Positions 1 through 30,473 are shown, counted from the first letter of the stretch. The stretch: 43,115 bases of DNA from Candidatus Omnitrophota bacterium (GCA_026387155.1 JAPLMF010000026.1:1-43115); one strand, 5' to 3'. A program made the numbers and translations. Notes: a model not told the origin generated them from the sequence alone.

Positions 1-104
1 TCTTTTGTCATCTGGACATCCGTCTCCAGAAGGTCGGCGCCTAATTCTAAAGCTCTATTAATATCGGCCACAGATCTTACCTGATGAGCTGCAAGCGCGG
101 GCCC
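1..104 (-). other. Start of a PLC-like/GDPD/SMaseD-like phosphodiesterase (TIM-barrel) domain, cut by the window edge
   Basis: The last 35 residues read PALAAHQVRSVADINRALELGADLLETDVQMTK. The pattern H-x-V...(A/L)-x-x-G-A-D-x-L-E-T-D-V matches the N-terminal catalytic His/Glu/Asp strand-helix-strand of GDPD and sphingomyelinase-D type enzymes as I remember them. Only a fragment is visible. Confidence 0.3.
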
Positions 105-3100
105 CTTATGTTTTCTGAAGAATGGCGGTACCTGGGATGTTTCTGCAGGACCGGCGGGAGGTATAGGTAAACCGCCGCTGAATATGCCCCATGTGTCATC
201 AGCGCTTTTTACTGCGAATATCGTGGGATTGGTGTTATTTACTATTCTCCATCCGTACTGGGTATCCGGCTCGAAATGCCAATCGCTAGCCGGGAATTGA
301 GGAGGAAGCTCTGCGGGTTTTTCGGTAATCTTGACTATCGCCGGCGGAGCCTGGGGCTGCATTGAAGATATGAACGCCTGGTCTTCCGGCATAAGCTCCG
401 CAGATTGTCTGGCTTCGTATATCGTACTCATCAGGACAGCATCTTTATTGGCCAGAAGATATATCAGCTTGTCCACTACATTTGTATAGGCGCCAAGTCC
501 TTCTCTTCCAAAAGAATATTGAATAAATTTTATCGTTGATGCAAAATCCTCTATTGGAACCCCTCTCATGTCTCTTCTTGACTTATTGTTGCCGTTCTCC
601 AGGATATCGCTTGCCCTGAAGATGACCGCCAGAAGCTTTACTTCATCCGGATTCATTGTAAATCTCTTTGAGAGTTCTATCATCTCCGGAGACGTATCCA
701 ATAGCCCCACTTTTTCATGGCACCTAATAATAGCCTCTGCTTCGGGGGATAAAGTTATTCCTCTATTCTTAAGTTCCGGTATGGCCAATAATCCGTGATC
801 CCACCAAGACTTAAGTACCTCGTCTTCTTCCGGAGAAAGCTTCTCACCTTTAAGTAATTCATACTCTTCTTTATACAGAAGGTAAGGATTAACGGTCTCT
901 TCTCGAGTTAACGGCCCGCGCAGACCCCGGACCGCTCTTTCTTCGGCGCGCTTAATACATATTGCCGGGTCCTCGCTGGGCTTTGTTTCTTTTGACCGGG
1001 TAAATTCCAACCTTAGAAGGACTTCATGTGCTTCGAGATATTTTACCTTGGCTAAACCGCCAATATCATGGGCCCAGCCAATACGCCTCAACATTTCTAT
1101 TTGCTGCAGTGGCAATCCTAAAGCCTCCGCTATTCTCACAGCTATCTTTGCATCCCTTATTGAATGGTCTTTTATGTAAGGCGCCACATCTCCGAGGATC
1201 TCTTCCTGCTGCATATCCAAAAGATCCTTAGCCTGGGGACGCGCCGTAGGCGAAACCTGGAACTGCCTTCTCCTGTCTCCTTCAGCTGTTATCTTTCCTT
1301 TAAGTATAACTTTTCTGGCCAACACAACCAATATGACCACTGCGAATACGAGTGCCACTACTACGGGCCAGTTATGACCTAAAGTTGTAACCCATGATGA
1401 AGCCTGACTTAAGCTTCCGGCAGCAGTCGATCCAGCCTGTGCAGCCTGGCCTGCAACTCCGGAGTGGAATGATTCTATTATGTTGACGACCGGAGCGATA
1501 TCACGCTTAGCAAACGTACCCGATAGATACTCTTGCGACAGGGGTCCGAGGAAACATATATATATTATGGCAAAGAAAGCTAGCCCATAGGTCCTTATCC
1601 CTCTCCAGCCTTTGATCTTCATAAAGAAATTCGCAAGTTCCGATTTTTCTGCAATGGCTTCACGCAAAAATCTAGCGGCGCCTCTGATGCTTGGATAGAA
1701 TCCCTGCTCTGTTCTGGAACGCAACCTGAAGTCTTTCTCTACGGCCCTATTTATACTAACGGTGACGCTCTTAAGCGTGTAAGGCCACCTGTTATCCTGC
1801 CTGTCCACTATCTGCCCCATTATCATGTCTGAAGCCGGGAATATAAGTAGATAATAGAAAGGCATGTTAAACGACCTGCCGGTATAGTACAGGTAGAACT
1901 TTGCCACATCCGGAGGAACCCTTACCATGCCCAAAGTCAGTATGGCCACAACTTTATCGGCCGGCAGAGTCCACCCCATCACGCGGAATATAACAGGTAA
2001 AAATATCATCGCTGAAGTACCTGCCCAGAAGATAGACGTGGCAAGTGAAAAACTCGGCACGAAGAGCGCCCCGATAGCCGCGGCTAAAAGTCCAAAAGTA
2101 AATATTACAAGGCCCGGGGCATACCTACCTTTCTCAAAGACGCCTTTCTCTTTCTGAAGCTTGGCGACCATCTCTTGGAGTGCATCCGCCACTGCTCCAC
2201 GCAATTCACTTTCCAGAGCGTCCAGACTATCTGCGGTCACTCCCCCGGATAATTTCTCACCAAGAACCCTGAATACATATCTTTGCTGGGCAGTAAGCTC
2301 CTTGCCATTTTGTTTCTTGTCCTTCTTTTCGCTTTGTTCCAGCGCCCGTAGTTCATCCGCAGCGTTTTTGCCTGGGTCTATCCGTCCCTTGAACTTTTCG
2401 ATAACGCCAAGCGCTTCATTCCAATTGGCGGCGTCCGCAGCATCTCCACGCAGCTTACCCCTGCTTCTTATATTATTGGCATCGTCTTCGAATTCGGAGA
2501 CTCTCTCATTGTAATATGTGTTATAGCCGATCCTTATCTTTTCAACCCCGCCTATGCGGTTAGCGTAAAGCGTATATATATTTCCGACTATTTGGCCAAA
2601 GAAATTACCGAGCATTATACTGACACCGACCACCTTGGTTGTTATTGCCCACATCGCCGGAGGTATGGCATATAGGACGGAACCCGTGAAGGGCGCTATA
2701 AAGTTCCTTATAAGACCGAATGTTATATCGTTCGCAGCCCACGACGGATGCACTCCAAGTATAAATTGCACTCCGAAAGAAAGAAGATAGAAGAGGGTTA
2801 TATTAAAGAAGAGACCTGTCCAGAAAGTGGACTCCACACCGGAGTCGAGGTTCCTGCTAATAAGAAAGTTTGAAAGCCCTACCGCTTTCACAGGGTTGGC
2901 TATATTATTAAGGGCCCTCTTATAGCCCAATCTTATTTGGATCCGCATTATAAAACTTCCAATAACAGCCCACAACCCATAACCGGCAAAGAATCCTATC
3001 GCCGCAAAGAATATACCTGCCCCGACTTGGCCGGGCACGGTTCCGATGAACGAACCGACAAGGCCAGCAATTACTGCTCCGAAGAATGGTGCCATAAAGC

Positions 3101-5636
3101 GGTATCTACCGGCAAATATCGTAGCATTAGAAACAGGGTTCACCCATCTTGACCGCTGAGCTACAAAAGCCATGTTAACCGGGCCTGCATTTTCAAAAAC
3201 AGAAGCACCTCTATCAGTACAATAGGTGACCTCCCTCTTGGTCATTACCAGTCTTATGCCAAGATGCTTGTCCTCTGTGGTGTCATCGGCCGGATGCGGC
3301 CCTAAAGGCTGCAGGTAATATACATCGGCTAGTGCCTGCATGGTCTTTTGTATAGCCGGATACCCTTTCCAGAAAGCCTTCCATCTAAGGCCTATGTATT
3401 CGGCTATTTCTCCGTTCTTCCTCTTAAGTTTTATCTGATCCCTTATAGCATCGTGCCTTTCCACGGCCTTTATCTTTGACACTAAGACTATCTCCTGACA
3501 TTCACGGCTCTTTGTTTTTTGTAAATATCCTTCCTTATCCGTATAATAACCGAACATGGCTCTATTGGAGAAACAATTGGACAAGCCATCGAGATGGAAG
3601 ACGGTACGTTTCGGCAGGCCCTTTTGCACCCATCCCCACCCTTTGTTAATGCCCATCCTTATTATGAATGAAGCCAGCAAGAACGCGCCTATGGCACTTG
3701 TGAGGAAAAGAGCCGTCCCATAGAAGCCACCTACCAAGAACAGGGCTTTAAGCCCTACATATACTCCGAACACGGACATGAGGAATGTCAGCGGATGCCT
3801 GGCTGCTACACCGCCAAATTTTACATTGCCCCAGATATTATAATCGCTGTAGAAGCTCTTGTTTTCTCCATAGGGCATCTGTAGCGGGTTACCCTGTATT
3901 ACACCTATCTTCATCCTTTCCCTGACCTGGTCGGCAAAAAAATCATTAAAATTTTTATAAACAGAATCCGCGCTTCCGAAGAGTTTCTTCTGAGTTTCGT
4001 ATCTGGCATCCGCTTCCGCGTCTCCTTTCCCGGAGGCCTTCTTATACTTTTCCAGATCCTTCACGTGCTTGTTCCAGTCCCGGGCTATCTCATCTATGAC
4101 AGAAAGCTTTATGCCCCATCTCTGGACCTCTTCGTATAGCTTGGGATTGTCTCTCTTCAGCCTTCTGCTCTTAAGCTTAGCCGTATCATATGTTCCGTCT
4201 TCATTTCTGGCCTCTTCGAGCACATATTCGACGATCGTGTCTTTCCTCGTCTTCATAAGGCTGTAACTCCAATAATGGAACCTTTGCGGGAAGTTATCTT
4301 CGTCGAGTATCTCCCACATATCCGGTATAACGGTCTTGTTCTTAGCTGCATTTTGATATTCTGCATCCATAGCCCTGACAATTTCCCAATATGCTGCGAA
4401 TAGATCCGATCCGGGCTTAGAAAGCGGCTGTGGCTGTACGCCGGACCCACCGCGAGCGCCCATAGGAGGCGGCTGTCTGCTTATAATGGCCGCTCCATCA
4501 GGTCCTAGTTGAGTATGGGACATTGCTATCATCTGCAAATCTGCATTATTCTGGTCGGTACCGGTATCTGTGTCCATCCTGGCTATAATAGCTTTTGTAC
4601 CGTTTTGATATGGATAGGCCCCCAAAAGAACTGAGTAGCGGTAAACCCTATCTATGACGAACCCTTTTTCTTTTATGGGTGGAGCAGGCCTGCCTATTGA
4701 AAGCTGTATGACAAGTTTATTCGCAAGGCTTCTAGCCTTTCTCTCGCCAAAAGTCTCCGCTAAGAATACGCATATGGACATATTCTCCACTTGCGACTTA
4801 TCTTGTTTTATCTTTAAGCTATCTTCTTCGCTAAAAACATGTTTCTCTTTCAACATCCTTACGGTTTCTGGCCTGAGACTGATCTTGCCGTCGATAACCG
4901 CTTTCTTAAATTCTCCTTTTACATCGTCGCTTAACTTGAAATTCCTGTCCATAAACATATCGTTACCGGACATATCCGGATTCACAGCGTAAAGATCCAA
5001 TATCGATTTAACGAGCTCCTGCTCTTCTATCTCATTCAATGTAGCCCACTGGAGATCTTCGATAGTCCTGCCAGTCCTGGCGCCGGCCGATTGTTCGTGA
5101 TCGCGCCATCTTTTATAAATGGCATCGTCATCGAGCGCTTCTAGTTCCGCGCGTATGGCATCCCTCTCCTCTTCTCGGCGCGTAAGCATCTCGACTGTTT
5201 GGGCAAGCACCATGTCTCTGTCGGCTGCCCAAGCTGCCGTCACCTGATCCTCGGAAACACCGAGATATTGGGCCTGATCTGATAGAGAGATCCTACCGGC
5301 CTTAGATTCCCTTCTTATCATATCCTCTATTTCAACGGCGGTGGTGCCCTGTGATATGTTGTGCAGGCCGTAAGATTCCGCCTGCCTTAATAGTGCATTC
5401 TTTCTTAAATCCTGAACCGTCAATACTTCATTTTCAGTAAGCGCGGTCCTGGCTTTCAGCCAGAAAGAACCGTTTGCTATAAACCATGCTTTTAGCGGCT
5501 GGATCATGCATGTCATCATGAAGAATCCTGCTCCAAGGACAGTAGTAAATGCTCGTTGTGATAGCGTCTGGGTCAGGTTTATAGAAACACCAGTTAATGA
5601 CCCTAGCTTCCCGATATAAGAAGCAAGCGTCGGCAC
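1..5636 (-). CDS. 3'-truncated giant-locus segment 6. Polytopic membrane protein of >=1,878 codons with a C-terminal HD domain and the start of a PLC-like phosphodiesterase domain. It continues past position 1.
   Basis: I translated the minus strand by hand. The frame is open from the stop at 5658-5660 down to position 1. The first canonical start is GTG at 5636, and ATG ATG lies at 5519-5514. The ORF is absent from the track because there is no stop in the window. Five hydrophobic clusters sit at about 3650-3810, 2560-3110, 1835-2125, 1545-1600 and 1318-1372. HD-type motifs are RRIGWAHDIGGL, IIRCHEKVG and FRASDILEN. Confidence 0.8.
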   Translation of the reverse strand, partial: MPTLASYIGKLGSLTGVSINLTQTLSQRAFTTVLGAGFFMMTCMIQPLKAWFIANGSFWLKARTALTENEVLTVQDLRKNALLRQAESYGLHNISQGTTAVEIEDMIRRESKAGRISLSDQAQYLGVSEDQVTAAWAADRDMVLAQTVEMLTRREEERDAIRAELEALDDDAIYKRWRDHEQSAGARTGRTIEDLQWATLNEIEEQELVKSILDLYAVNPDMSGNDMFMDRNFKLSDDVKGEFKKAVIDGKISLRPETVRMLKEKHVFSEEDSLKIKQDKSQVENMSICVFLAETFGERKARSLANKLVIQLSIGRPAPPIKEKGFVIDRVYRYSVLLGAYPYQNGTKAIIARMDTDTGTDQNNADLQMIAMSHTQLGPDGAAIISRQPPPMGARGGSGVQPQPLSKPGSDLFAAYWEIVRAMDAEYQNAAKNKTVIPDMWEILDEDNFPQRFHYWSYSLMKTRKDTIVEYVLEEARNEDGTYDTAKLKSRRLKRDNPKLYEEVQRWGIKLSVIDEIARDWNKHVKDLEKYKKASGKGDAEADARYETQKKLFGSADSVYKNFNDFFADQVRERMKIGVIQGNPLQMPYGENKSFYSDYNIWGNVKFGGVAARHPLTFLMSVFGVYVGLKALFLVGGFYGTALFLTSAIGAFLLASFIIRMGINKGWGWVQKGLPKRTVFHLDGLSNCFSNRAMFGYYTDKEGYLQKTKSRECQEIVLVSKIKAVERHDAIRDQIKLKRKNGEIAEYIGLRWKAFWKGYPAIQKTMQALADVYYLQPLGPHPADDTTEDKHLGIRLVMTKREVTYCTDRGASVFENAGPVNMAFVAQRSRWVNPVSNATIFAGRYRFMAPFFGAVIAGLVGSFIGTVPGQVGAGIFFAAIGFFAGYGLWAVIGSFIMRIQIRLGYKRALNNIANPVKAVGLSNFLISRNLDSGVESTFWTGLFFNITLFYLLSFGVQFILGVHPSWAANDITFGLIRNFIAPFTGSVLYAIPPAMWAITTKVVGVSIMLGNFFGQIVGNIYTLYANRIGGVEKIRIGYNTYYNERVSEFEDDANNIRSRGKLRGDAADAANWNEALGVIEKFKGRIDPGKNAADELRALEQSEKKDKKQNGKELTAQQRYVFRVLGEKLSGGVTADSLDALESELRGAVADALQEMVAKLQKEKGVFEKGRYAPGLVIFTFGLLAAAIGALFVPSFSLATSIFWAGTSAMIFLPVIFRVMGWTLPADKVVAILTLGMVRVPPDVAKFYLYYTGRSFNMPFYYLLIFPASDMIMGQIVDRQDNRWPYTLKSVTVSINRAVEKDFRLRSRTEQGFYPSIRGAARFLREAIAEKSELANFFMKIKGWRGIRTYGLAFFAIIYICFLGPLSQEYLSGTFAKRDIAPVVNIIESFHSGVAGQAAQAGSTAAGSLSQASSWVTTLGHNWPVVVALVFAVVILVVLARKVILKGKITAEGDRRRQFQVSPTARPQAKDLLDMQQEEILGDVAPYIKDHSIRDAKIAVRIAEALGLPLQQIEMLRRIGWAHDIGGLAKVKYLEAHEVLLRLEFTRSKETKPSEDPAICIKRAEERAVRGLRGPLTREETVNPYLLYKEEYELLKGEKLSPEEDEVLKSWWDHGLLAIPELKNRGITLSPEAEAIIRCHEKVGLLDTSPEMIELSKRFTMNPDEVKLLAVIFRASDILENGNNKSRRDMRGVPIEDFASTIKFIQYSFGREGLGAYTNVVDKLIYLLANKDAVLMSTIYEARQSAELMPEDQAFISSMQPQAPPAIVKITEKPAELPPQFPASDWHFEPDTQYGWRIVNNTNPTIFAVKSADDTWGIFSGGLPIPPAGPAETSQVPPFFRKHKGPALAAHQVRSVADINRALELGADLLETDVQMTK
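545..1175 (-). other. HD-superfamily metal-dependent phosphohydrolase domain
   Basis: The segment reads DHSIRDAKIAVRIAEALGLPLQQIEMLRRIGWAHDIGGL (His-Asp codons at 1065-1070) ... WWDHGLLA ... EAIIRCHEKVGLLD ... LLAVIFRASDILENG. This gives the spacing H...HD...H...D typical of HD domains. Confidence 0.65.
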
Positions 5637-5640
5637 ATGT

Positions 5641-6558
5641 TCAGCAAACAGATATGATCAAAGCAGCCCCTATCACGAACTGGTATCTATCCCTGATCGG
5701 TATCCTTGAAGCGAGGGAGTCGAGTATATTCTCGTATTCGGATACTGCTCCTATGCGGGCGGCGCGTTCTTTTATACCGGTCTTATATTCTCCTGGTTTT
5801 AGATTTTCCAGGAACTCAATATTCATGCAATATACGGCGGCGTTCAAGTCATACCCGACCCTGTGGGCAAAAAGCTCCGAGGCCAAATGCGGCGCGCCGC
5901 CATCATCTTCTTTTATTTCGCCCACCGCATCTCTCTCAAGCAGGCCGATATATTTCTCCGAACCGGGCATCTCGTATTCGCTTGTATCTCTTCCGGCTCT
6001 ATCTTTGACCTTAACCCCGAAAAGCCCTATTACAGTGCCACCTGACTGCCTAGTTCTATCCTCCTCAGAGAGATCGAACGTAGGAGTCTGCTTATACCTT
6101 AAAAATCTGTATTTCGGCCCCATGACCTTCATAAGATTAAACTTCGCATCCCTGTGCACAGTTATCCTATATCGCATTCTCTTGGTCTTATTCAATCCGG
6201 AATTGTTAAGGCCGTATCTTTTAATGATCCGATAATCCTTACCATCGAGCTCTGTTTTGCCAAGGAACGCTTTTATTTCAGCTGCGGGTGATACTAAGAA
6301 GTATCTTCCTTTGGCGTCAGGATCTTCAGCTATCTTTATCCCTGTATCTTTTAATAACTTGAAAGCACCCTCGCTCAAACCATCTTCTGCTAAACTTCCT
6401 TTTATAGCCACTAGAGACCTGGCGGCCTCTCTCTTCAGGAACTCAACTTCTATCCTTGCTATATCTATTGAGGCAAATAGGTCATTATATGCTTTTGTAT
6501 CCTTTACTATATCCTCTCCGCTGGGGAACTCTACCCTACCCGGAATATTATTAAGCAC
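5641..6558 (-). CDS. Hypothetical protein, giant-locus segment 5
   Basis: A 305-aa ORF with a GTG start. Its frame is already open from about 6650 and codes plausibly there (LIKLIDDARAAPPGSEYADALQRLNN...). It ends in a hydrophobic stretch (FVIGAALIISVC) that overlaps the open frame of the next ORF. I recognise no family. Confidence 0.6.
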   Translation of the reverse strand: MLNNIPGRVEFPSGEDIVKDTKAYNDLFASIDIARIEVEFLKREAARSLVAIKGSLAEDGLSEGAFKLLKDTGIKIAEDPDAKGRYFLVSPAAEIKAFLGKTELDGKDYRIIKRYGLNNSGLNKTKRMRYRITVHRDAKFNLMKVMGPKYRFLRYKQTPTFDLSEEDRTRQSGGTVIGLFGVKVKDRAGRDTSEYEMPGSEKYIGLLERDAVGEIKEDDGGAPHLASELFAHRVGYDLNAAVYCMNIEFLENLKPGEYKTGIKERAARIGAVSEYENILDSLASRIPIRDRYQFVIGAALIISVC

Positions 6559-6629
6559 GTTGTTAAGCCTTTGGAGGGCGTCGGCGTATTCGCTTCCGGG
6601 CGGTGCGGCCCTGGCATCGTCTATTAATT

Positions 6630-9416: not shown

Positions 9417-9855
9417 GCTCTTTAAGTTGCCTGAAGGATAGTAGGCTGTCGTTGCGAAGAGATTGCCTGCCTTATCCAGCTCTGCCTTGCCGGCCTCTGT
9501 CCTGGTCTCGCCTGTATATTGAGGAGCTATTGTCCAGAGAATCGGAAGTAGCGTATGTCACGCTCTTTAAGTTGCCTGAAGGATAGTAGGCTGTCGTTGC
9601 GAAGAGATTGCCTGCCTTATCCAGCTCTGCCTTGCCGGCCTCTGTCCTGGTCTCGCCTGTATATTGAGGAACCTCGGAGTTCCCGTTGACCTTAATCGTC
9701 TTTGTGACTCGGCCGTACGGGTGCGCCAGGGGCTTGCCGTCTTTTACATCTACAGTAATGAGGGCTGTTTCATCGTACTCATATCCCTTGTTGCTATTGT
9801 CCAGAGAATCGGAAGTAGCGTATGTCACGCTCTTTAAGTTGCCTGAAGGATAGTA
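9396..9855 (-). repeat. Coding tandem repeat with a 267-nt (89-aa) YD/RHS-like module, partly collapsed
   Basis: 9396-9525 and 9541-9670 are identical (130 nt, offset 145). 9526-9588 and 9793-9855 are identical (63 nt, offset 267). One unit encodes YYPSGNLKSVTYATSDSLDNSNKGYEYDETALITVDVKDGKPLAHPYGRVTKTIKVNGNSEVPQYTGETRTEAGKAELDKAGNLFATTA. A more diverged third unit follows at about 9130-9395. Confidence 0.9.
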
Positions 9856-16100: not shown

Positions 16101-19100
16101 CTTGTCGTATCTGTCGGCTTCACTATTGGGCGCGTTCGCCTCGAGCTCCTTGAGTAGGTCTTTAACTTCAGTATTGAATAGCTCTACCGATATCTGAGCC
16201 CCAAGTTTGTAGGTTTCCTTGGTAAAATCACTATTCCATGTTCCGGTGATGCCTATCCAGGCCCCGAGCCGCCCGTACCAGTGCTGTCTCCCGTATTGTT
16301 TCAGCCACGGGGTGGCTATATCATTAAGCATCTTAAGGAGCGACGCCTTGCTGGCATCGGATGTCATGAATAGGTCTATTGCGGCTTCAGATATGCTCTT
16401 ATCGCCTCTCGCTACGGATCCCAGGACCGCCAGCCTCTTCGCGTCGAGATCAATGCCCGCCTCTTTCAGTATAGTAGCCACCTTCTCCGGCCGTCTGCCA
16501 TGAGCAGCTATCAAGCCGTGAGTGTACATCGTAGCTTTTATATAATCCTTCTTGGCTATATACTTCTTTATGATTTTAAAAGCGAACTTTTCGGCGTTGA
16601 TTCGTTCATCTGAATCGGCTGCTTTGGCTATAACCGGCAATATGGTTTCAAGCGCCGCAGCATAATTCTCATCGTCGTATAGTGTCTTCGCCCGCGTTAA
16701 GGCATCGGCCATTGAAAATCCGGAAACATCAAGCGCAGATACTTTTATATCATCTATTGTGAACATGGCGCGGGTGAGATTTTCGGTATCACGGCTCTTT
16801 GCATATTCGAGCGCACCCTTAAGCGCTTTAATATCGTCAGGATTCACCGTACCGTTAAGTCTGTCGATACTACTTGCCACAAACCTGTAGGCCCTGCCCC
16901 TGAATAGCGCATCGTTCATATTACCGGTGGTTTCGGCGTGTATCACCGGCAAGAGATTCTTTACTACGCCGAGGTAGTCACCTTTATGGGCAAGTTCCTT
17001 TGCGCCGTCATAAGTTTTCCTGCCGTCCCTTGAATTATATAAAGCCGGATCGAGAGAGACTTTTATGAGCGCCAGACGCTTACTGGCAGACCTCTCTTCG
17101 GCGGCCTTTTCGGCTGCGGCCTTCTGCTCTTCAGCGGCTTTCTTTTCTGCGACAGCTTTTTCGGCTGCGGCTTTCTGCTCGGCAGCCTTGCGCGTTTCCT
17201 CGGCTGCTATTTCGGCTGCGGCTTTCTTTTCTGCAGCGATCCTCTTTCTTTCAACGGCTTTCTTCTTTGCGGCAGCTTTCTTTTCTGCAAGGGCTTTCTT
17301 ATCTGCGATGGCTTTCTGCTCGGCAGCTTTACGTGCTTCCTCTGCGGCCTTCTGCGCTTCAAGTGTTACAGAAGCGGTAACGGACGGAGCAGCGGGGGGA
17401 ACTGCAGGTGCCTGTACTACCGGCGGAACCGTTAATGCGGGAGCCATGACTGTGGATGGCTGTGCGACAGAAGGTGCCGGAGCGGCCGCTAATGGAGCAG
17501 CCGGTTTCTCTTCCTTAGGAGGTGGAGGCGTCCCGCCGCCAGGCCCCGGACCGGGTCCGGCTAAGCCGGGTCCGATTCCGGCGCCGACAGGCTTTTCCAC
17601 CTTAGCGGCTTCTTCGGCAGCCTTCTTCTCGGCTGCGGCCTTCTGTTCTTCAGCGGCTTTCTTTTCTGCATCCTTGCGCGCTTTAGCTTCCGTATTTATG
17701 GTAGCAAGCAACTGGCCGGGTAATTTTTGAGCAACTATCAATGCCCTGTCAACCTGTTCGGGGGTTTTGGCTGCCTTTATGAGTCCGCTTGCTATATCTC
17801 TGGTATTTATATTCTCAAGATCCGATGGAGGCGCGCGGCTCTCGGGCGTTACTGCTTCCGGAGCCTTTGGCACCGCAGATCGTTTTATTGTTATACCGAA
17901 TATCTTATCGAGATTCGCGATGAGCTGATCCTCGGTCTGTGCCTTATACATGCTCTGCTCAGGTGCTACGACACGATTGACTTCGGCGCCCATGCCTATC
18001 GATGGAACCGCACCGGCTATTATAGCGGAAGCCATTAGGCCTTTTACCATTTTCTTTGATTCGGTCGCGGCAAGACGTTCGAACACTCCCGTAGGCTTCT
18101 CGCCTCGCGCCATACGAGCCATTACACTCTTGCGATAGGCTAATAATTTATTGCCGAGGATGGCTATCAAGGTCACTGAGGAAACGGTTAACGTTAGCGC
18201 CGCTATTGAAAATCCTCCAACCATCATGTATATACCGCCTACGACGGCACCGGCCGCGCCGAATCCTACTATCATGCCTCTGAGATTAGGCGCGGTGAGT
18301 TCAAATATCTCGCGGATGAACTGCGCGCGCGTCGTGGTCTTTCCAAGGGCTTCGCTTTCTACCGCGGCAAATCTTCTGGCCATGTAAGGCGCGGCTATCA
18401 CATATAATACGGTCGTCGCAAGAACTATCATTGAGCCCATCGTTGTGAAAGCGGTGAATGCTCCGCCGACTGAACCCGCGCCCTTAGCTACGATAAGAAG
18501 GACTGTGAGGAGTAGCGGCATCGCGGCTACACCGGCTATCTTCGCTTTTATCGCGGGACGCGAGCGCTCAAGGGCCTTTCCTTCCGGCGTTTGGGCGTAC
18601 ATCCTGGAAAACGCTGTCCTTGCCCACATGCCGGCAAGCGCTATCGCGCCCACGCCTGCTGCGAATCCGGCAGTACTGCCGGAAAGGAGGGCTAAAAGGA
18701 TCGTTCCTGTCACCGCAGCCAGACTGAAACCGAGGTAACTCATTGCGCGCTGGAAACCGGTCCTCTGGACCGTCACAGCGAGAGATATCTTTTTGTGGAA
18801 TATGATCGAGATGGCCGCTCCCGCTAAGATCCCTATCGCCGCCATAGCAAGCGCCGCAATGACCACAACCGGCGCGGCCTGCGGAAACATTATCGTAGAT
18901 GCGAGCGCAAGGAGTGATCCTATCGGCATCGTGCCGCTCAATAGCTGCAGTATGGATACAGGGATCGCTCCCACAGCCCCCGCCAACTCGCGCGAACTGG
19001 CTACGCCGCGCAGCGCAAGAGCGAGATTCTGCTGTCCTCTATAAACTTGGGAGAACTTCTTTACTTTCACTAAATAGATAGCGAGTCCTATTATAACGAG

Positions 19101-21251: not shown

Positions 21252-21298
21252 GACGCCCTTGCCTTCGGCACCCGCAAAGTCAGGGTCTTACCAAATCC
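19450..21298 (-). other. Divergent SecA-type ATPase motor (NBD1, PPXD-like insert, NBD2, start of the helical scaffold), interrupted by a frame break at 21264-21287
   Basis: Each motif is given against E. coli SecA as I remember it:
- MLMGFGKTL (21281-21298, previous ORF frame) vs MRTGEGKTL.
- GKGVLVATKSDDLAKRDA vs GKGVHVVTVNDYLAQRDA.
- YFVLFDEADDPLVYQLMTPFIISG (DEAD at about 20940-20957) vs [23 protein letters not shown].
- DYAIVGNEIVIIDNGVKQPGRRWSNGLHSAIEAK vs [36 protein letters not shown].
- AITIVTNRGARGVDVKL vs AVTIATNMAGRGTDIVL.
- DKQFRRRLVRRPGDTGAWRAYWSIEDKIF vs [31 protein letters not shown].
- LLDNAFSRYLSTMNRAQYDI vs LDSLWKEHLAAMDYLRQGI. Confidence 0.8.
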
Positions 21299-24200
21299 CA
21301 TGAGCATCTGGTACATCTTACCTTTTACAAGTTCTGGGGCTGCCGCTGCCTGGACTTTTAACTTTTCGTAGTCGGGAGTAATATTCTCGCCGCGCAGATA
21401 TTCCAGTTCGACCTTTAACGCCGACCGCATCTCATCTGTGTATATAGGATTAGCGAGGAATTCTTCATCGGTCATAATTGCGGGTGCCGGCGCAGCTGGC
21501 GGAGCTTCAGTCCCGGTAACGCCTTTTTCAAACTTGATCCCCCATCCGAAAATCGCCGATAACTTATTCATCAAAGGCTGGATCAACCAGTTCGAGAGTA
21601 TGTGCCAACCTGAGTTTATAAGGAAGAACATCAAGAATACGGATTGCGGGGTCTGTCCCAGGATATGCGTCAATATTTGCGGCGCGAAGAAAGTGCCTAT
21701 CAGAAATATAGCGGAAGGCAGTGAAACTAGTATAGGTACGACGGTCTTTTCGATTACCTCTTTTCTTAGTCCCGGAGGAGCGCGCGGACTTATGGAGCTG
21801 CGTATTTTCCCTAGACTTATATGGCGGTGCACAAATATCAGGATCGCCGCTGTCATTGTAACAGCTACTATTGCGCTCGCCGCGCCTGATGTCATATCTA
21901 AACCCATAATATTGGCCAGTAATGTTCCGGATCCGAGGCCCAATACCACGGGAAATATAAACGATTCAAAGACCGGCGCTATCACGTTATCGAACAGCCA
22001 CCTACCTGCCCTATTATCCCTAAAGAACGGTTTGCTGTCGCGGTATCTCTGCATCTCGAGCGTCACGCCCTTGCCTGCGCGCATCCTGACGGCTTTTTCA
22101 AGCTTTGCTACCTCGTTCTCAAATTGCTTCCAGTTTGGATTTTTTCTTAAATCTCCGATCTCGCTCGTAATTTTCTTCAGCATCAAATAAGGCGCCGGAT
22201 TTTTCTCAGGATCGAAGTTCTTCATCGCTTTCTGCGCCTCATTAAAACCGATGCCTAGAGATGCTATCTTTGCCTCAAGCTGGACACTATTCATCTTGTA
22301 TATGGGGCCCGTTACTTCTTCGGGTTTAATTATATCGGCAAGTTTCTTAGGTACCGGCTTCTTTAGCGACGGCGCCTTTTTGAAAATCTTCAGGCACCAG
22401 CGCGCGCCCAGCACTATCCCTATTGCCGCACCGACAAGAACTAATCCTGTGCCAATGCCTACGCCGCCAGCGGAATCCTGAGCGATTCCTCGAGCCGCTT
22501 CACCGGCATAGGACGAAAGGGCCGTACCAAGCAGCAATATGCCGCCTATAGAGAGAAGCCTTCCTCTATTAGTACCAGAAATATTTCGCTTAGCTCTTGC
22601 TCTGAGCCAGAGAGTCGCAAGTATGATATCCATTACCGCCAAAAATACGATTATTGCCCCGGTAGCTATCTTCTTCCACGCCGGACCCTTAGTCTCGGTT
22701 ACAGCTTTCTGTACTGCATTAACAACTGATTCTTTCTGAACTTTCGGAGCAGACGGCTTCTCTACTACGGATATACCGGCTGTAGTCACCATAAAATTCT
22801 GGACGGAACCCGTCAATTTCAGATTACTTCCCGCCTGATTCTGCATGGCCGCAAGCCGGGTAAATACCCTGTCTATGGCCCGTTTCATGCCCTCTATTTT
22901 ACCTTCCTTTTCGAGCAAAGCCCTCTTGCGTTCATCTGGAATGCCCGCCAACTGTTTTTCTAAAGTAGCTTTCTTATTCGTCCATTCACGGTGGAGTTTC
23001 ACAGCGTTATTATACAGGCTCCTGTATTTTGAGCCCGTCTTACCTCTATACATCTCCATGTCCCTACTGTACCTACTGAGATTGAATGGGACATCTTCTG
23101 CAAGTGCTTTTTTGAGGGTGGCCTCACGTCTGTCAGCCCTAGCCAACGAGCCGTCCCTGTTATACACATTAAACCAATACTCAGCTATCTTGTCCCTAAG
23201 TTGAAGCGCATTCGTACAAGATCCTGCGTCGGGCATAGGGTCCGGATCAAGAGCAAGGGCAACCCTGGTCATATAAACCGCAAAGGCATCACATAAAACT
23301 AGGTATGCTTTTTGAACATCGATGGAGGCGTCCTTCAGTTCTTTTATCGTGGCCGGGCCTTTAGGAAAATAGTTATCGTGCACGAATCTTATGGTAGTTT
23401 CGATATTGGTCTTTAAAACACCCCCGTCATTACGACGGGATAAACGATCTAGAAAATCCCTGAAGTTGTTATAGCGGGGATCTTTCCACACCTGTATCTG
23501 CCCAAGCCCGGTACCGGCGCCGGCTTCGAGCTGAGTCCTTCTCCTGCCACCCATGCTTTCATGCTCCAATATGCAAAGCATAACGATAAACTCATTTCTA
23601 TTCATATTTGCTTTGGCGGATTTTGGATCCGTTGGAACCAGGTTTGTAAGCGGCTCCGTTATGAAAGCCGCAGCCGCGGCAAGGGGTATCAGCTGGCTAA
23701 ATCTTGTGTCGCCATCGGCTTTAGTATCGACATTGGGATGAAACGGTATTCCGCGATTATACGGCGCTGCGGGCGCAGTCGGAGTTACTTGTGTCGTAAC
23801 GGCCCGTTGCGGTATAGCCGCGGGAGTTCTCATGAAGGTCTGCGCGGCCGTCTGTGCGGCCATTGATGGCGCAACAGCCGCTAGGATCGTTATCAATATG
23901 GCCAATAGTACGGTGGACCAGTGAGTGTAAAGCGCCGTTGGCTTTTTGACCTCAGCCGGGGCAGCTTGGGGTTTGACTGGCCTCTCCTGAGAAACAGCCT
24001 TCGGGGTAGGTGCTGCGGTTACAGGCGCCTGTACCGGTGCCTTTCCGAGATACTTATGCAGATCCTCGGTCAGTTTTCTAATGTCCTCGGCGGTAATTTC
24101 TCCTCCATATGCCGCTAATGACCACATCTCAGTCGCTCTTTCTATCAATACTCCCGCACCGCTACCAGGCTCATTTTCCCTGCTTTCGATATCATTCTTG

Positions 24201-26938
24201 AGCGCATGGCACTCATAAACCCCTTCCCAGAACGCTCTTTTATTTCTTTGAATAAGGCCATCTTTAGTTATATTTGCGAGTATGCCCACATGTCCGCTTA
24301 CCACCAGATACAGAATCCAGTCTCTGGCACTATAGACTCTTTTTTCTTTCGAAACAGGGTTGTCCGCTACAGGGGCTTGTGAGCCCCTTTCTCTCATAAC
24401 TTTCGTTGCAATTGAAATCCTTGTATCTGGCGGCAGATCTTTGTAGACAGCATTGATAATTCTCGCTTCGGCAATAAGATTTTCGATGTCTTCATCTCTC
24501 GTGCCGATATGATCTCTTATACGATCAAATAACTCGATGATCTGAGCCGCGAGCATCTCAGGCATCTTTGCTGGGGCGGCCTTCTGCGGAGCGGCTTCTT
24601 TGGCCGGCGCCCCTTGCTTTTCGGTCACCTTCAACGTAAGCGCATCCACCAATCCCTTAATACTGGCTTCCTTGTTGTAAGTAGATGTCGGTATATTGAG
24701 TCCTTCTGATCTTCTAAGAACATTTAGGACTTGTGCTTGGGACACTGGGCCGTTACCGGATTGTGCGGCTTTAAATATACGCTCTACGGCAGCATCATCA
24801 GCGATCAGCTGATTTAGAGTCTTTTCCCATTGTTCCTTGAAATACACATCTACGGCGGACTTTATGGCGCCGGGCTCTATGCTAACGGCGGTGACGCCTT
24901 CGGGAACAGCCGCCTTGTCGATATCTATGCCGAGGTTTTTATTGAAGAGATATTTGACGAACCCTTTGAACTCTTCCGGAGTAAGAAGCCTTACTCCTTC
25001 CGGCGCCGTGAAGCTCTTATAGAAAGCATCGTAGCTGTTCGAATATATCTCTAAAAGGCTTTTACAGTCTTTGGCAAGCTGGGCGACCGTCATGCGTTTA
25101 AATCTCGATTCAGCCTTTTCGGGATCGGATTCGCGCGAAACATAGAACTTAGCTGCCTGGATGATAGCCTGGCCGTAATTTTCGTTAAGCTCGGCAAAGA
25201 GTTTTGCCTGATCCGCAAGATCCCGACTTATCATCCCGCTTATTCCGTTAAAGTACGCCGCGGTCGCCAGGTAATATTGTCCGCTCTGAAGCAGCCCCTT
25301 GTACGACTCGGCCTTATTTGTGAGTATTGCCACATACGGACGCTCGGGTTTTGAAGCGTCAAACTTAGGAAGTATGACGAGATATGATGTCTCTTTCTGG
25401 CGAAGGAGCTCGGTAAGGCCCTTCGTGTGGTAACCGCCTGTGATGAGGGCCGCGACATTCTGGCCTTCCTGGTTCATGCGGCTGACGGTATTGGCAAACA
25501 TGACCGAATTACGCTTTTCAGCGGTGTGATAGAAATCCATAGCCGCCGGTATATACCCGAATATCCGGCCAATATCATAATCACCTTTTAGCGCCACATT
25601 GTATTTGCTGGAGGCATCTCTTAAGAACTCAGCCAGAACCTGGGCATTGCATACCTTGACATTATCCGACAGATATTCAAAATCACCGTTCTGGAGCTTA
25701 AGCTCAAATAGGTCCTGTATAAAATCTACGCATTTCGAAAGATCGTGGAGTTTTTTCTGGTCATCGTTAGCGAAGAGCTTCGCCTTTATCTCATCCTCAA
25801 AATCACGGGCCTCGGCGAATATTCCGAGAAGGTCTATTGCCTCGTAGAGCGCTATATATTCAGTATAGTTTATAAGGTTTTTGTAAGGCGCCGGGGATAT
25901 TCCATTCTTCTGGGCGAGGTCCTCGAGGAATGTGTAATATTCGCCCTGGGAGACCTTATTCGTCTTGAAAGCGAGCGACTTTAGTACCAGCTTTTCTAGC
26001 TCCGCCTTGGCAAGCGACTTACTCAAGGCATCAATAAGCGAGTCGCGTTCTTTATTGGCGGTGTCGAAACTTATACCCTTTTCGAGCTTGAGGGACTCTA
26101 CGAGCTTCGAAAGGTTCGGGTACTTTTCGTAGCTTGAGCCCGTCTTCCCGGCCAGCTTATTCACGAGCTCCCAACGTGCGGTAAAGGTTATCTTGCCATC
26201 CTTATGGAGCACGGAATTGGCGTCAAGTTCTTTTAAGTCGCTCGAATATATCTTCTCCTGGAGCTCTTTCAGCGCGGCCTTCAGGTTGGCCAGATCGGTC
26301 TTCGTAGCTTCATTTATCTCATAAACCTTTCGGAACTGCTCAACATTCGTCTCATAAAGGGGTTTGTCCTCGATACCATATAACGCTATCGGCTTGTTCG
26401 AGGTTATCGCGAAGAACTCGCCGGCCGACATACGCCCCTTCCCCATCAGGTACTTGGCGGTCGAACGCTTTATGTTTTCATCGGGAAATGTCTTTAAGAG
26501 GGACGTGTCTATGTAACCGGTGGAACCTTCTATCGCGATGAGTTTCAAATCGTAATTTGTAACGAGAGAATCTAGTATCGAGGCTATGGACTCCTGGGCC
26601 GCTAGAGATGCGTGCGCGTCCTGGATGTTTATTATCGTCTTGTCGCCCGTGGAATTATAAACTTCTTTCGTTACGGCAACATCCTTGGGGACATTGATAT
26701 TACTATTTATATTGAGAGGGTTAGCTGATGCGGCCTGCTTGCCCCAGATGGGGTCGCCGCCCTGGGCCCATACTATATCTTGGTTAATGAATGCAAAAAC
26801 AACGAGAAGAGCTATTAGACGGATCCACTTCTTGTTCCTAGTGCTCCTCCAATCCATTATGAGCGAAGTAGATTCCAGCTCTTCTCTCGTCGAAGGTTTC
26901 CCGACGACAAAATCATTTGTAACGCGCCAAGCATTCAT
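21167..26938 (-). CDS. Giant-locus segment 1 (N-terminus). In order: signal anchor, possible TIKI/TraB/ChaN-like domain, Pro/Ala linkers, SLT-like lytic transglycosylase motif, TM helices, first P-loop of the SecA-like motor.
   Basis: A 1,923-aa ORF. ATG at 26938 is preceded by GTGAGGCG about 8 nt upstream (SD-like) and by a promoter-like element. KKWIRLIALLVVFAFINQDIVWAQ is a signal/anchor. The last 30 residues (RVPKARASWLQRRATTWQRGTLELPDRLKASLAAP) look like out-of-frame read-through after GFGKTLTL. Confidence 0.85.
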   Translation of the reverse strand: MNAWRVTNDFVVGKPSTREELESTSLIMDWRSTRNKKWIRLIALLVVFAFINQDIVWAQGGDPIWGKQAASANPLNINSNINVPKDVAVTKEVYNSTGDKTIINIQDAHASLAAQESIASILDSLVTNYDLKLIAIEGSTGYIDTSLLKTFPDENIKRSTAKYLMGKGRMSAGEFFAITSNKPIALYGIEDKPLYETNVEQFRKVYEINEATKTDLANLKAALKELQEKIYSSDLKELDANSVLHKDGKITFTARWELVNKLAGKTGSSYEKYPNLSKLVESLKLEKGISFDTANKERDSLIDALSKSLAKAELEKLVLKSLAFKTNKVSQGEYYTFLEDLAQKNGISPAPYKNLINYTEYIALYEAIDLLGIFAEARDFEDEIKAKLFANDDQKKLHDLSKCVDFIQDLFELKLQNGDFEYLSDNVKVCNAQVLAEFLRDASSKYNVALKGDYDIGRIFGYIPAAMDFYHTAEKRNSVMFANTVSRMNQEGQNVAALITGGYHTKGLTELLRQKETSYLVILPKFDASKPERPYVAILTNKAESYKGLLQSGQYYLATAAYFNGISGMISRDLADQAKLFAELNENYGQAIIQAAKFYVSRESDPEKAESRFKRMTVAQLAKDCKSLLEIYSNSYDAFYKSFTAPEGVRLLTPEEFKGFVKYLFNKNLGIDIDKAAVPEGVTAVSIEPGAIKSAVDVYFKEQWEKTLNQLIADDAAVERIFKAAQSGNGPVSQAQVLNVLRRSEGLNIPTSTYNKEASIKGLVDALTLKVTEKQGAPAKEAAPQKAAPAKMPEMLAAQIIELFDRIRDHIGTRDEDIENLIAEARIINAVYKDLPPDTRISIATKVMRERGSQAPVADNPVSKEKRVYSARDWILYLVVSGHVGILANITKDGLIQRNKRAFWEGVYECHALKNDIESRENEPGSGAGVLIERATEMWSLAAYGGEITAEDIRKLTEDLHKYLGKAPVQAPVTAAPTPKAVSQERPVKPQAAPAEVKKPTALYTHWSTVLLAILITILAAVAPSMAAQTAAQTFMRTPAAIPQRAVTTQVTPTAPAAPYNRGIPFHPNVDTKADGDTRFSQLIPLAAAAAFITEPLTNLVPTDPKSAKANMNRNEFIVMLCILEHESMGGRRRTQLEAGAGTGLGQIQVWKDPRYNNFRDFLDRLSRRNDGGVLKTNIETTIRFVHDNYFPKGPATIKELKDASIDVQKAYLVLCDAFAVYMTRVALALDPDPMPDAGSCTNALQLRDKIAEYWFNVYNRDGSLARADRREATLKKALAEDVPFNLSRYSRDMEMYRGKTGSKYRSLYNNAVKLHREWTNKKATLEKQLAGIPDERKRALLEKEGKIEGMKRAIDRVFTRLAAMQNQAGSNLKLTGSVQNFMVTTAGISVVEKPSAPKVQKESVVNAVQKAVTETKGPAWKKIATGAIIVFLAVMDIILATLWLRARAKRNISGTNRGRLLSIGGILLLGTALSSYAGEAARGIAQDSAGGVGIGTGLVLVGAAIGIVLGARWCLKIFKKAPSLKKPVPKKLADIIKPEEVTGPIYKMNSVQLEAKIASLGIGFNEAQKAMKNFDPEKNPAPYLMLKKITSEIGDLRKNPNWKQFENEVAKLEKAVRMRAGKGVTLEMQRYRDSKPFFRDNRAGRWLFDNVIAPVFESFIFPVVLGLGSGTLLANIMGLDMTSGAASAIVAVTMTAAILIFVHRHISLGKIRSSISPRAPPGLRKEVIEKTVVPILVSLPSAIFLIGTFFAPQILTHILGQTPQSVFLMFFLINSGWHILSNWLIQPLMNKLSAIFGWGIKFEKGVTGTEAPPAAPAPAIMTDEEFLANPIYTDEMRSALKVELEYLRGENITPDYEKLKVQAAAAPELVKGKMYQMLMGFGKTLTLRVPKARASWLQRRATTWQRGTLELPDRLKASLAAP
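23250..23610 (-). other. SLT-family (goose-lysozyme-like) lytic transglycosylase motif region
   Basis: The sequence is NRNEFIVMLCILEHESMGGRRRTQLEAGAGTGLGQIQVW, with Glu-Ser codons at 23555-23560 and GLGQIQ at about 23489-23508. The canonical SLT pattern is E-S-x(10-12)-G-A-x-G-L-M-Q-I/L. A later EYWFNVYNRDGS resembles the AYNxG motif. Confidence 0.5.
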
Positions 26939-26996
26939 CTAGAGACGCCTCACTTTTGTAGTGTTAACAACTGACTTTTTGTTGTATCACACTACA

Positions 26997-30462: not shown

Positions 30463-30473
30463 TTAAGGCTCTT

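What the first reader, a model, noticed from the sequence alone, without database searches (positions are those of the whole stretch)
1..26938. One giant gene of at least about 8,900 codons appears as six or seven abutting ORFs
From ATG 26938 to position 1 there is no real intergenic space, and every ORF is on the same strand. I see only one promoter/SD-like signal, at 26997-27024 and 26946-26953.

Evidence at each boundary:
- 21264-21287: splits a conserved SecA motif.
- 13146: the stop is created by a perfect 7-nt duplication.
- Upstream of the TTG at 12865: 101 sense codons contain no possible start.
- About 9860 and 9525/9526: both lie inside a collapsed tandem repeat whose units continue across three listed ORFs.
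- 6630-6650 and 5636-5660: the downstream frame is already open before the upstream stop.

Read through, the product carries a signal anchor, a cell-wall lytic motif, a SecA motor, more than 20 TM helices, a periplasm-spanning spacer, a TolC-like module, YD repeats, an HD domain and a phosphodiesterase-like domain. It is still open at the window edge.

This matches what I remember of giant, TM-rich, SecA-DEAD-containing genes from Candidatus Omnitrophota. The particular module order here is not something I can match to a described system.
Basis: partly seen in the sequence, partly recalled or inferred. Interest (0 to 1): 0.9.

Follow-up and report, generated by a model that had tools for sequence, protein, structure and literature searches.

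The report
Broken-up giant Omnitrophota membrane-protein gene
Seven abutting reading frames on one strand are pieces of a single giant (at least 8,929-codon) membrane-protein gene of a kind already described in Omnitrophota bacteria, cut by six small insertions or deletions that are most likely local assembly errors.

Summary
From ATG 26938 to base 1 the minus strand has seven stop-free segments that abut or overlap. Six small repairs give 8,929 codons with no stop, still open at the contig end.

Relatives show it is one gene:
- Sixteen Omnitrophota genomes carry the N-terminal domain and the SecA-like domain in one uninterrupted ORF, and alignments run straight across junction J1.
- A Ca. Tantalella ORF holds B-like and C-like parts in one frame.
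- A 6,065-aa ORF fragment (P0081) aligns at 41% identity in one piece across D, E and F.

The breaks cut a P-loop helix, a repeat array and a membrane helix, and no fragment has an ATG/SD restart. They are lesions, not gene boundaries.

Whether they are artefacts or real mutations could not be settled without reads. I favour local assembly error (about 0.65). The same contig has a 68-nt out-of-frame insert in an ordinary AcrB gene. Two independent assemblies that are 99.99% identical elsewhere lack it.

The kind is known: TM-rich giant Omnitrophota proteins with a divergent SecA DEAD/PPXD motor lacking scaffold and wing (West-Roberts 2023; Nielsen & Lui 2026). The TolC and YD calls got no profile support. 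Lysozyme, HD and GDPD are sub-threshold. This is a new member of a known kind, of modest interest.

The parts
26997..27024 (-). Promoter-like site (TTGACA-16-TATACT, TG) upstream of the giant gene
   Evidence: Best of all sigma-70-like matches in 1-27400, 11/12; the other sites are at chance level.
26946..26953 (-). SD-like GTGAGGCG, 8 nt before ATG 26938
   Evidence: Nine of ten ordinary genes of the contig also start with ATG after a purine-rich stretch.
21278..26938 (-). Segment A (repaired aa 1-1887): signal anchor, conserved N-terminal domain, lysozyme-like stretch, hydrophobic-helix cluster, first part of SecA NBD1
   Evidence: Annotated in NCBI as a separate 1923-aa protein.
25244..26716 (-). 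Conserved N-terminal domain (aa ~75-565) that opens this gene family
   Evidence: 188 relatives in GTDB species representatives, all Omnitrophota. No Pfam or NCBIfam hit. Conserved QDAH / EG / E..RN / GGYH columns. AF2 model pLDDT 85.9. Top PDB fold hit is erythromycin esterase EreC, prob 0.91, E 0.03.
23165..23599 (-). Lysozyme-like stretch (aa ~1114-1258; EHES...GLGQIQ)
   Evidence: Pfam Phage_lysozyme2, E 0.0075, 16.9 bits, below the 28.2 cut-off, profile 17-139 of 140. No PDB sequence hit. AF2 single-sequence model unusable.
20034..21367 (-). SecA-like ATPase: NBD1 + preprotein cross-linking domain + NBD2, without scaffold/wing
   Evidence: NCBIfam SecA profile positions 118-623 of 789, far below the cut-off.
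21264..21287 (-). J1: frame break inside the P-loop helix of NBD1
   Evidence: Twelve of the 13 relatives whose alignment spans the P-loop have 7-16 more residues between GKT..AGA and GK.V and are continuous there.
13148..21277 (-). Segment B (aa 1888-4597): rest of SecA-like motor, about 8 hydrophobic helices, Ala/Glu/Lys- and Pro-rich low-complexity stretch (about 16950-17702), long helical region
   Evidence: L038 and L066 ORFs are homologous to aa 3540-4387.
13141..13154 (-). J2: perfect 7-nt tandem duplication AAGTTCT AAGTTCT that creates the TAA stop
   Evidence: L038 has B-like and C-like parts in one uninterrupted ORF.
9857..13140 (-). Segment C (aa ~4598-5691)
   Evidence: 101 start-less sense codons lie upstream of its first TTG.
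9855..9860 (-). J3: +1 frame change at the left edge of a perfect 62-63-nt repeat copy
9396..9670 (-). J4: 130-nt perfect direct repeat with 15-nt spacer (period 145 = 3n+1); the frame changes at 9525/9526
   Evidence: Removing 145 nt restores the frame.
6636..9525 (-). Segment D
   Evidence: Homologous to P0081 aa 1-870, P0082 aa 190-793 and L037.
6630..6648 (-). J5: frame break within a 15-nt window
   Evidence: A P0081 alignment (45% identity) runs straight across it.
5650..6636 (-). Segment E
   Evidence: 52% identical to residues 863-1160 of the 6065-aa P0081; 38% to residues 1255-1418 of the 5700-aa P0082.
5641..5657 (-). J6: frame break inside a predicted membrane helix
   Evidence: P0081 and P0082 alignments cross it.
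1..5651 (-). Segment F (aa 7047-8929), open at the contig end: hydrophobic-helix clusters, HD-like region (315-1241), start of a GDPD-like domain (3-74)
   Evidence: P0081 continues 3,380 aa beyond the point that matches aa 8515.
30070..30137 (-). Not part of the gene, but a control for assembly quality: 68-nt out-of-frame insert in the second AcrB gene
   Evidence: Absent from Logan contigs L002 and L003, which are otherwise 99.99% identical. It is a divergent copy of the preceding 68 nt. Removing either copy restores a 1056-aa ORF.

Best explanation
Positions 26938 to 1 (minus strand) are the first 8,929 or more codons of one giant gene of an Omnitrophota bacterium. It is transcribed from the promoter-like site at 27024-26997 and starts at ATG 26938.

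Shown or supported by sequence:
- An N-terminal signal anchor.
- A roughly 500-aa family-defining domain, possibly erythromycin-esterase/TraB-like.
- A SecA-like ATPase (NBD1-PPXD-NBD2) without scaffold or wing.
- Several clusters of membrane helices: 31 hydrophobic 19-aa windows, some overlapping.

Sub-threshold: a lysozyme-like stretch, an HD-like region and the start of a GDPD-like domain.

Inferred from the literature on this class: the protein sits in the inner membrane, its built-in SecA-like motor helps thread its own extracytoplasmic segments, and outward-facing modules act on a host or prey envelope.

The six frame breaks are lesions peculiar to this contig, not gene boundaries. They are most likely local assembly errors of the contig-join kind, meaning small unmerged overlaps and small lost gaps.
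For: One gene:
- 16 relatives have the N-terminal and SecA-like domains in one uninterrupted ORF.
- About 70 of 82 family copies run uninterrupted to the end of the locus, up to about 4,000 aa.
- Alignments are continuous across J1.
- B-like and C-like parts lie in one ORF in L038.
- P0081 aligns at 41% identity over 2,801 columns from D through E into F. P0082 and L037 are collinear.

Lesions, not boundaries:
- The breaks cut a P-loop helix, a repeat array and a membrane helix.
- The first start codon in each fragment after A is TTG or GTG without SD, except ATG 9909 in the 145-aa fragment X.
- There are no in-frame nonsense codons in 8,929 repaired codons.

Assembly error:
- The same contig carries a 68-nt divergent-duplicate insert, followed by about 140 nt of variant haplotype, that breaks an ordinary AcrB gene.
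- Two independent assemblies lack the insert and differ by one base over the 10.4 kb and 8.2 kb they share with the contig upstream of the site.
- J3 and J4 sit at the edges of perfect repeats.
- West-Roberts et al. report a local Illumina assembly error that split one giant gene into two adjacent genes.
- The 305-aa E ORF is not on record in any other assembly, although the organism is present in at least 8 runs. This is weak evidence.
Against: - No reads were available, so no break was tested directly.
- Base-level accuracy of the contig is very high, so the indels are not base-calling noise.
- A 7-nt tandem duplication (J2) is a classic real slippage mutation that de Bruijn assemblers do not normally create.
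- J1 removes at least 7 residues of a conserved helix. An artefact there would have to delete about 20 nt.
- J1, J2, J3, J5 and J6 show no flanking duplicate of the kind seen at the AcrB site.
- Some relatives also have short N-terminal-domain ORFs or a frame change, for example L062 and P0037-P0043. Real disruption or fission therefore occurs, or is equally mis-assembled, in this family.
Confidence: 0.65

Rival explanations
1. It is one giant gene by descent, but the six indels are real mutations. The copy in this strain is a recently inactivated pseudogene, or a disrupted allele segregating in the population. Only the first roughly 1,900 residues would be made.
For: - High base accuracy of the contig.
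- J2 is a typical slippage duplication.
- J1 removes part of the P-loop helix that 12 of the 13 relatives aligned there retain.
- Giant genes are large mutational targets, and Omnitrophota genomes carry several paralogous copies, for example three starts on PLNN01000019.
- Some relatives also show truncated or frame-shifted copies.
Against: - Six indels but no nonsense codon in 8,929 codons.
- Protein similarity to orthologs stays at 41-46% right up to both sides of J5 and J6.
- The AcrB lesion on the same contig is a divergent duplicate plus a haplotype patch, which is not a simple mutation. It is absent from two independent assemblies of the same population.
- Seven frame-breaking lesions in 43 kb is far above the rate seen in relatives.
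Confidence: 0.28
2. The segments are separate, translationally coupled genes of an operon. This would be natural fission of a giant gene into modules.
For: - NCBI annotates A, B, D and E as separate proteins.
- E and F have GTG codons 72 nt and 3 nt after the upstream stops.
- Some relatives have stand-alone N-terminal-domain ORFs of 600-1,200 aa.
Against: - The breaks lie inside a P-loop helix, inside repeat units and inside a membrane helix, not between modules.
- The stop at J2 is created by a 7-nt duplication.
- C has 101 start-less codons.
- Restart codons lack SD, whereas normal genes here use ATG with a purine-rich leader.
- Orthologs are continuous at every junction that could be tested.
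Confidence: 0.05
3. Programmed recoding (ribosomal frameshifting or transcriptional slippage) joins the frames in vivo.
For: Nothing specific. The only basis is that the frames abut.
Against: - It would need six sites with different shift directions: two are -1/+2 and four are +1.
- No shared slippery motif is visible at the junctions.
- J2 and J4 are duplications.
- J1 lacks residues that relatives have.
Confidence: 0.02

Closest known systems
Giant TM-rich, SecA_DEAD-containing proteins of Ca. Omnitrophota (West-Roberts et al. 2023, bioRxiv 10.1101/2023.11.21.568195; catalogue of Nielsen & Lui 2026, bioRxiv 10.64898/2026.06.07.730766)
   Same: - Phylum: all relatives are Omnitrophota MAGs.
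- Many membrane helices.
- Divergent SecA DEAD plus preprotein-binding domains without scaffold or wing.
- An N-terminal region without a database domain.
- Mostly unannotatable sequence with few sequence relatives.
- Gene broken or truncated in a short-read-type assembly. That paper reports one giant gene split in two by a local assembly error.
   Different: - Only 8,929 codons are visible, below the 10-kAA and 30-kAA thresholds those papers use. The gene runs off the contig.
- No glycosyltransferase, methyltransferase, NUDIX, dockerin or TSP3 domains in the visible part.
- No C39 or S8 peptidase near the N-terminus. A conserved roughly 500-aa domain with a weak erythromycin-esterase-like fold match sits there instead.
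- The ORF is interrupted six times in this record.
Canonical SecA preprotein translocase ATPase
   Same: NBD1 (Walker A GxGKT), PPXD and NBD2 are recognisable. NCBIfam SecA profile positions 118-623 match.
   Different: - Scores are far below the family cut-offs (147 vs 862 bits).
- No helical scaffold, wing or C-terminal domains.
- Embedded between membrane-helix clusters of a giant protein.
- The P-loop helix is shortened and frame-shifted in this record.
P0081 (GCA_042571705.1, contig JBHPFV010000037.1), a 6,065-aa ORF fragment filling a whole 18.2-kb contig
   Same: 41% identity, collinear with aa 5847-8515 (segments D, E, F), and with HD-like regions downstream.
   Different: It is uninterrupted. 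It continues 3,380 aa further with NTP-transferase, methyltransferase, TPR and LMW-phosphatase domains that lie beyond this window's edge, if they are present here at all.

Membership tests
Omnitrophota giant SecA_DEAD-type membrane proteins (West-Roberts 2023) | Encoded in an Omnitrophota genome | tested here: met
   All 79 related loci and all named protein hits are Omnitrophota MAGs, a few mislabelled 'uncultured Planctomycetia'. The window's own taxonomy was not given.
Omnitrophota giant SecA_DEAD-type membrane proteins (West-Roberts 2023) | Numerous transmembrane helices | tested here: met
   31 hydrophobic 19-aa windows at or above 1.6 on the Kyte-Doolittle scale, some overlapping, in several clusters. 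This is a crude method, not TMHMM.
Omnitrophota giant SecA_DEAD-type membrane proteins (West-Roberts 2023) | Divergent SecA DEAD plus preprotein-binding domains, lacking scaffold and wing | tested here: met
   Pfam SecA_DEAD, SecA_PP_bind and P-loop_SecA hit; no SecA_SW. The NCBIfam SecA match ends at profile position 623 of 789.
Omnitrophota giant SecA_DEAD-type membrane proteins (West-Roberts 2023) | Giant length (at least 10,000 aa in Nielsen & Lui; more than 30,000 aa for the core set of West-Roberts) | tested here: inconclusive
   8,929 codons are visible and still open at the contig end. The ortholog fragment P0081 has 3,380 aa beyond the last aligned point, which suggests more than 11,000 aa, but this is not shown.
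Omnitrophota giant SecA_DEAD-type membrane proteins (West-Roberts 2023) | A single uninterrupted ORF | tested here: not met
   Six frame breaks in this record. Relatives are uninterrupted at the corresponding places. Whether the breaks are real needs reads.
Archaeovorin subtype | Glycosyl transferases/hydrolases, methyltransferases, peptidases, NUDIX | tested here: not met
   No such Pfam or NCBIfam hits in the visible 8,929 aa. The unseen C-terminal part could differ.
Dockerin-type subtype | Many dockerin and TSP3 repeats | tested here: not met
   No dockerin or TSP3 hits.
Canonical SecA | NBD1-PPXD-NBD2 plus helical scaffold, wing and C-terminal domains; score above the family cut-off | tested here: not met
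   147 bits against a cut-off of 862. Profile positions 624-789 are unmatched.
   No OEP hit at E <= 1. No PDB sequence hit. Only a short LTIEEAIxxAxxNNPxI-like motif is visible. The fold was not tested.
   No RHS_repeat hit at E <= 1. Repeated beta-hairpin-like units with YxYD are visible by eye.
Erythromycin esterase / TraB / TIKI / GumN-like superfamily (N-terminal domain) | Shared fold and the conserved His, Glu and Arg motifs (recalled from memory, not looked up here) | tested here: inconclusive
   Conserved QDAH, EG, E..RN and GGYH columns in 47 sequences. Foldseek top hit is EreC 6xcs_A, prob 0.91, E 0.029, TM 0.21-0.27, and Ere-like 2rad/3b55 are also listed. No Pfam hit.
HD phosphohydrolase | H...HD...H...D motif and a profile match | tested here: inconclusive
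   Pfam HD E 0.011, 16.5 bits, below the cut-off of 22. The motif AHDIGG is visible. The region is homologous to P0081, L046 and L056.

The most novel reading that the evidence does not exclude
The six breaks are real and tolerated. This population would carry a giant gene caught in the act of decay or fission, with only the N-terminal roughly 1,900-aa part (family domain, lysozyme-like stretch, membrane cluster) still made. That would give a natural experiment on which part of an Omnitrophota giant protein is dispensable.
Probability: 0.12. Interest if true: 0.5.

Novelty: new member of a known kind. Interest (0 to 1): 0.3.

Why it matters
- Annotation. GenBank lists these pieces as unrelated hypothetical proteins of 305-2,701 aa and one truncated AcrB. 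Anyone counting giant genes, or using this MAG for pseudogene or coding-density statistics, would be misled.
- Curation. The case shows how to recognise a fragmented giant gene from sequence plus relatives alone.
- A search handle. The conserved N-terminal domain was found in 188 loci of species-representative genomes, often several per genome. It is a practical way to find the starts of this class of giant genes.
- Biology. This adds one more, poorly conserved, member to a class whose function is still only inferred.

Tried and rejected
A 4,900-aa query timed out.
- A word-based protein search across J5 and J6 found only the window's own protein.
- A JGI metagenome scan with the D-E-F region found no relative.
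- Exact look-ups of A, D, E and X in other assemblies found nothing. Independent assemblies of the giant gene itself could therefore not be obtained. Only 28329-40612 is covered by Logan contigs.
- A test for serial duplicates at each junction was positive only for J4 and the AcrB control.
- tblastn of aa 700-1850 against the 79 loci found no homologs.
- PDB sequence searches for the TolC-like and lysozyme-like regions found nothing useful.
- The single-sequence AF2 model of the lysozyme-like stretch had pLDDT 45 and was not used.
- Programmed frameshifting and a true operon were considered and rejected; see the rival explanations.

Full report
**Observation**

On the minus strand the window has seven stop-free segments that abut or overlap by 15-437 nt:

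| Segment | Coordinates | Frame | Length |
|---|---|---|---|
| A | 26938-21167 | 1 | 1,923 aa, starts with ATG |
| B | 21287-13146 | 0 | 2,713 aa |
| C | 13168-9794 | 1 | 1,124 aa |
| X | 9909-9472 | 2 | 145 aa |
| D | 9557-6630 | 0 | 975 aa |
| E | 6645-5641 | 2 | 334 aa |
| F | 5657-3 | 0 | 1,885 aa, open at the edge |

The window is a whole 43,115-nt NCBI contig. A, B, D and E are annotated there as separate proteins. Six minimal repairs give 8,929 codons without a stop.

- The SecA Walker-A region is split at 21264-21287.
- The stop at 13146 is made by a perfect AAGTTCT AAGTTCT duplication.
- 101 start-less codons precede the TTG at 12865.
- The repeat array at 9.3-9.9 kb has units that run through C, X and D. 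TRF reports a period-145, 100%-identical repeat at 9396-9670.
- There are 15-16-nt frame overlaps at 6630-6645 and 5641-5657.

The best sigma-70-like site of the whole 27 kb lies at 27024-26997, just upstream of ATG 26938. Other matches are at chance level.

**Is it one gene?**

Relatives answer this at every junction.

J1:
- The Omnitrophota protein P0001 (locus L001/L062) aligns straight through it.
- So do about a dozen further loci.
- In 16 related loci the family's N-terminal domain and the SecA-like domain lie in one uninterrupted ORF, 833-3,239 aa apart.
- After repair, the Pfam SecA_DEAD match starts at profile position 77 instead of 116, and the score rises from 60.8 to 79.2 bits.
- NCBIfam SecA matches to B start at profile position 118 at B's residue 8.

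J2:
- Removing one 7-nt copy restores the frame.
- A single ORF of Ca. Tantalella remota (L038) has segments homologous to aa 3540-4295 (B) and 4608-5329 (C) in order.

J3 and J4:
- The roughly 87-aa units (YYPSGNLKSVTYATSD...YEYDE...PYGRV...) continue from frame to frame.

J5 and J6:
- An exhaustive HMMER search with E found it as residues 863-1160 of a 6,065-aa ORF fragment, P0081. That fragment fills a whole 18.2-kb contig of GCA_042571705.1. E also matched residues 1255-1418 of the 5,700-aa P0082.
- BLASTP aligns repaired aa 5847-8515 to P0081 1-2686 in one 2,801-column alignment at 41% identity, across both junctions.
- An uninterrupted 3,212-aa ORF in L037 has D-like and F-like parts at the same spacing.

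Family-wide, about 70 of 82 copies run without a stop to the end of the fetched locus, up to about 4,000 aa.

**Lesions, not gene boundaries**

- J1 lies in the helix after the P-loop. Twelve of the 13 relatives whose alignment spans it have 7-16 more residues there.
- J3 and J4 lie inside repeat units.
- J6 lies inside a predicted membrane helix.
- J5 lies inside a stretch that aligns with P0081.
- The first available start in each fragment after A is TTG or GTG without an SD, except the ATG at 9909 in the 145-aa fragment X. Nine of ten ordinary genes on the contig start with ATG after a purine-rich leader.
- A true operon, natural fission and programmed recoding are therefore very unlikely.

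**Artefact or real mutation?**

This could not be tested directly, because no reads were available. No independent assembly of the giant gene could be retrieved either.

One indirect control exists. Logan contigs from other runs cover 28329-40612. Upstream of 30138 they differ from the window by one base over 10.4 kb (L002) and 8.2 kb (L003). At 30137 the window has an extra 68 nt. This is an 82%-identical copy of the preceding 68 nt, followed by about 140 nt with 16% mostly synonymous differences. After that the sequence is identical again. The insert breaks the second AcrB gene. That gene reads through the site without a stop in L003, as far as that contig extends. Removing either copy from the window gives a 1,056-aa ORF.

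That pattern looks like two haplotype versions joined in series, which is an assembly-join artefact rather than a simple mutation. It shows that this contig contains frame-breaking structural errors.

A model of abutted contig ends, with small unmerged overlaps and small lost gaps, would explain all seven lesions:
- Overlaps: 68 nt at the AcrB site, 130 nt at J4, 7 nt at J2.
- Lost gaps: at least 20 nt at J1, and a few residues at J5 and perhaps J6.
- The lesions lie 0.3-9 kb apart in otherwise accurate sequence.

Further support:
- There are no nonsense codons.
- West-Roberts et al. describe exactly such a local error splitting a giant gene in an Illumina assembly.

Points against:
- A 7-nt tandem duplication is a typical real slippage event.
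- Five junctions show no flanking duplicate.
- A few relatives also have truncated or frame-shifted copies.

I put artefact at about 0.65 and real pseudogenising indels at about 0.28.

**What the protein is**

| Feature | Position (aa) | Support |
|---|---|---|
| Signal anchor | 38-56 | Hydropathy |
| Conserved N-terminal domain | ~75-565 | 188 loci in GTDB representatives, often several per genome; no Pfam or NCBIfam hit |
| Lysozyme-like stretch | 1114-1258 | Pfam Phage_lysozyme2, E 0.0075, below cut-off |
| SecA-like ATPase (NBD1-PPXD-NBD2, no scaffold or wing) | ~1858-2302 | Pfam and NCBIfam |
| Membrane-helix clusters | several | 31 hydrophobic 19-aa windows, some overlapping |
| Ala/Glu/Lys- and Pro-rich low-complexity stretch | ~3080-3330 | Sequence, TRF |
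| Repeated beta-hairpin-like units | ~5540-5850 | By eye only |
| HD-like region | ~8517-8825 | Pfam HD, E 0.011, below cut-off |
| Start of a GDPD-like domain | 8906-8929 | Pfam GDPD, E 0.0013, cut by the contig end |

For the N-terminal domain, an AF2 model has pLDDT 85.9. Its best PDB fold match is erythromycin esterase EreC (prob 0.91, E 0.03, low TM). With the conserved QDAH / E..RN / GGYH columns, this suggests an Ere/TraB/TIKI-like core with a large helical insert. It is a lead, not a result.

The mechanism is inferred from the literature on this class. The protein would be anchored in the inner membrane, its built-in SecA-like motor would help export its own external segments, and outward modules would act on a host or prey envelope.

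**Comparison with what is known, and verdict**

This is the class described by West-Roberts et al. 2023 and catalogued by Nielsen & Lui 2026. It comprises TM-rich giant Omnitrophota proteins with divergent SecA DEAD/PPXD domains lacking scaffold and wing, which are mostly sequence-unique and often broken in short-read MAGs.

The visible part here shows none of the enzyme sets of the Archaeovorin subtype and none of the repeats of the Dockerin subtype. Its length within the window is below the 10-kAA threshold, although P0081 suggests several thousand more codons beyond the edge.

- It is a new member of a known kind.
- Interest is modest. The main value is curation, plus the N-terminal domain as a handle for finding the starts of such genes.

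Noticed in passing
window 30070-30205 (minus strand), second AcrB-like gene 27224-30462: A 68-nt insert breaks an AcrB/RND pump gene. It is an 82%-identical copy of the preceding 68 nt and is followed by about 140 nt of variant haplotype. The gene is annotated as a truncated 955-aa protein. Two independent Logan assemblies lack the insert, and removing it gives a 1,056-aa ORF.
   Followed up: yes
window 25244-26716; loci L006-L084: The roughly 500-aa N-terminal domain has no Pfam or NCBIfam match but occurs in 188 loci of Omnitrophota species representatives. It almost always sits at the very start of an ORF that then runs for thousands of codons. It has conserved QDAH / E..RN / GGYH motifs and a weak erythromycin-esterase-like fold match.
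   Followed up: partly
L028, L035, L046 (PLNN01000019.1); L042; L066: Several genomes carry two or three copies of this gene start on one contig, about 30 kb apart on PLNN01000019.1. This suggests tandem arrays of giant genes. In L037 and L046 one giant ORF ends a few hundred bases before the next begins.
   Followed up: no
L001/L062 (JADGBR010000028.1), locus L001 9824-10022 and 14450-14491: In this relative the N-terminal-domain ORF (855 aa) and the SecA-containing ORF are in different frames and overlap by about 200 nt. The SecA ORF is annotated as two partial genes only because of a 42-N scaffold gap. This may be another fragmented giant gene.
   Followed up: partly
window 27224-36838 (minus strand): Directly upstream of the giant gene lies a complete RND efflux set: an outer-membrane factor (OEP, 34907-36838), a membrane-fusion protein (33657-34877) and two AcrB-type pumps. 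A terminator-like hairpin at 27121-27099 separates it from the giant gene's promoter.
   Followed up: no
window 7109-7345 (minus strand): Within D there is a diverged internal duplicate at protein level (QYIRSIGTG(K/R)(G/N)G(A/S)DEFFSAP...), with 73% nucleotide identity. It is a natural repeat, not a lesion.
   Followed up: no
P0081 (L085) residues 2690-6065: Downstream of the part homologous to this window, the ortholog fragment carries two HD-like regions, an NTP-transferase, SAM methyltransferases, TPR repeats and an LMW phosphatase, each separated by short membrane helices. This hints at what may lie beyond the window's edge.
   Followed up: partly
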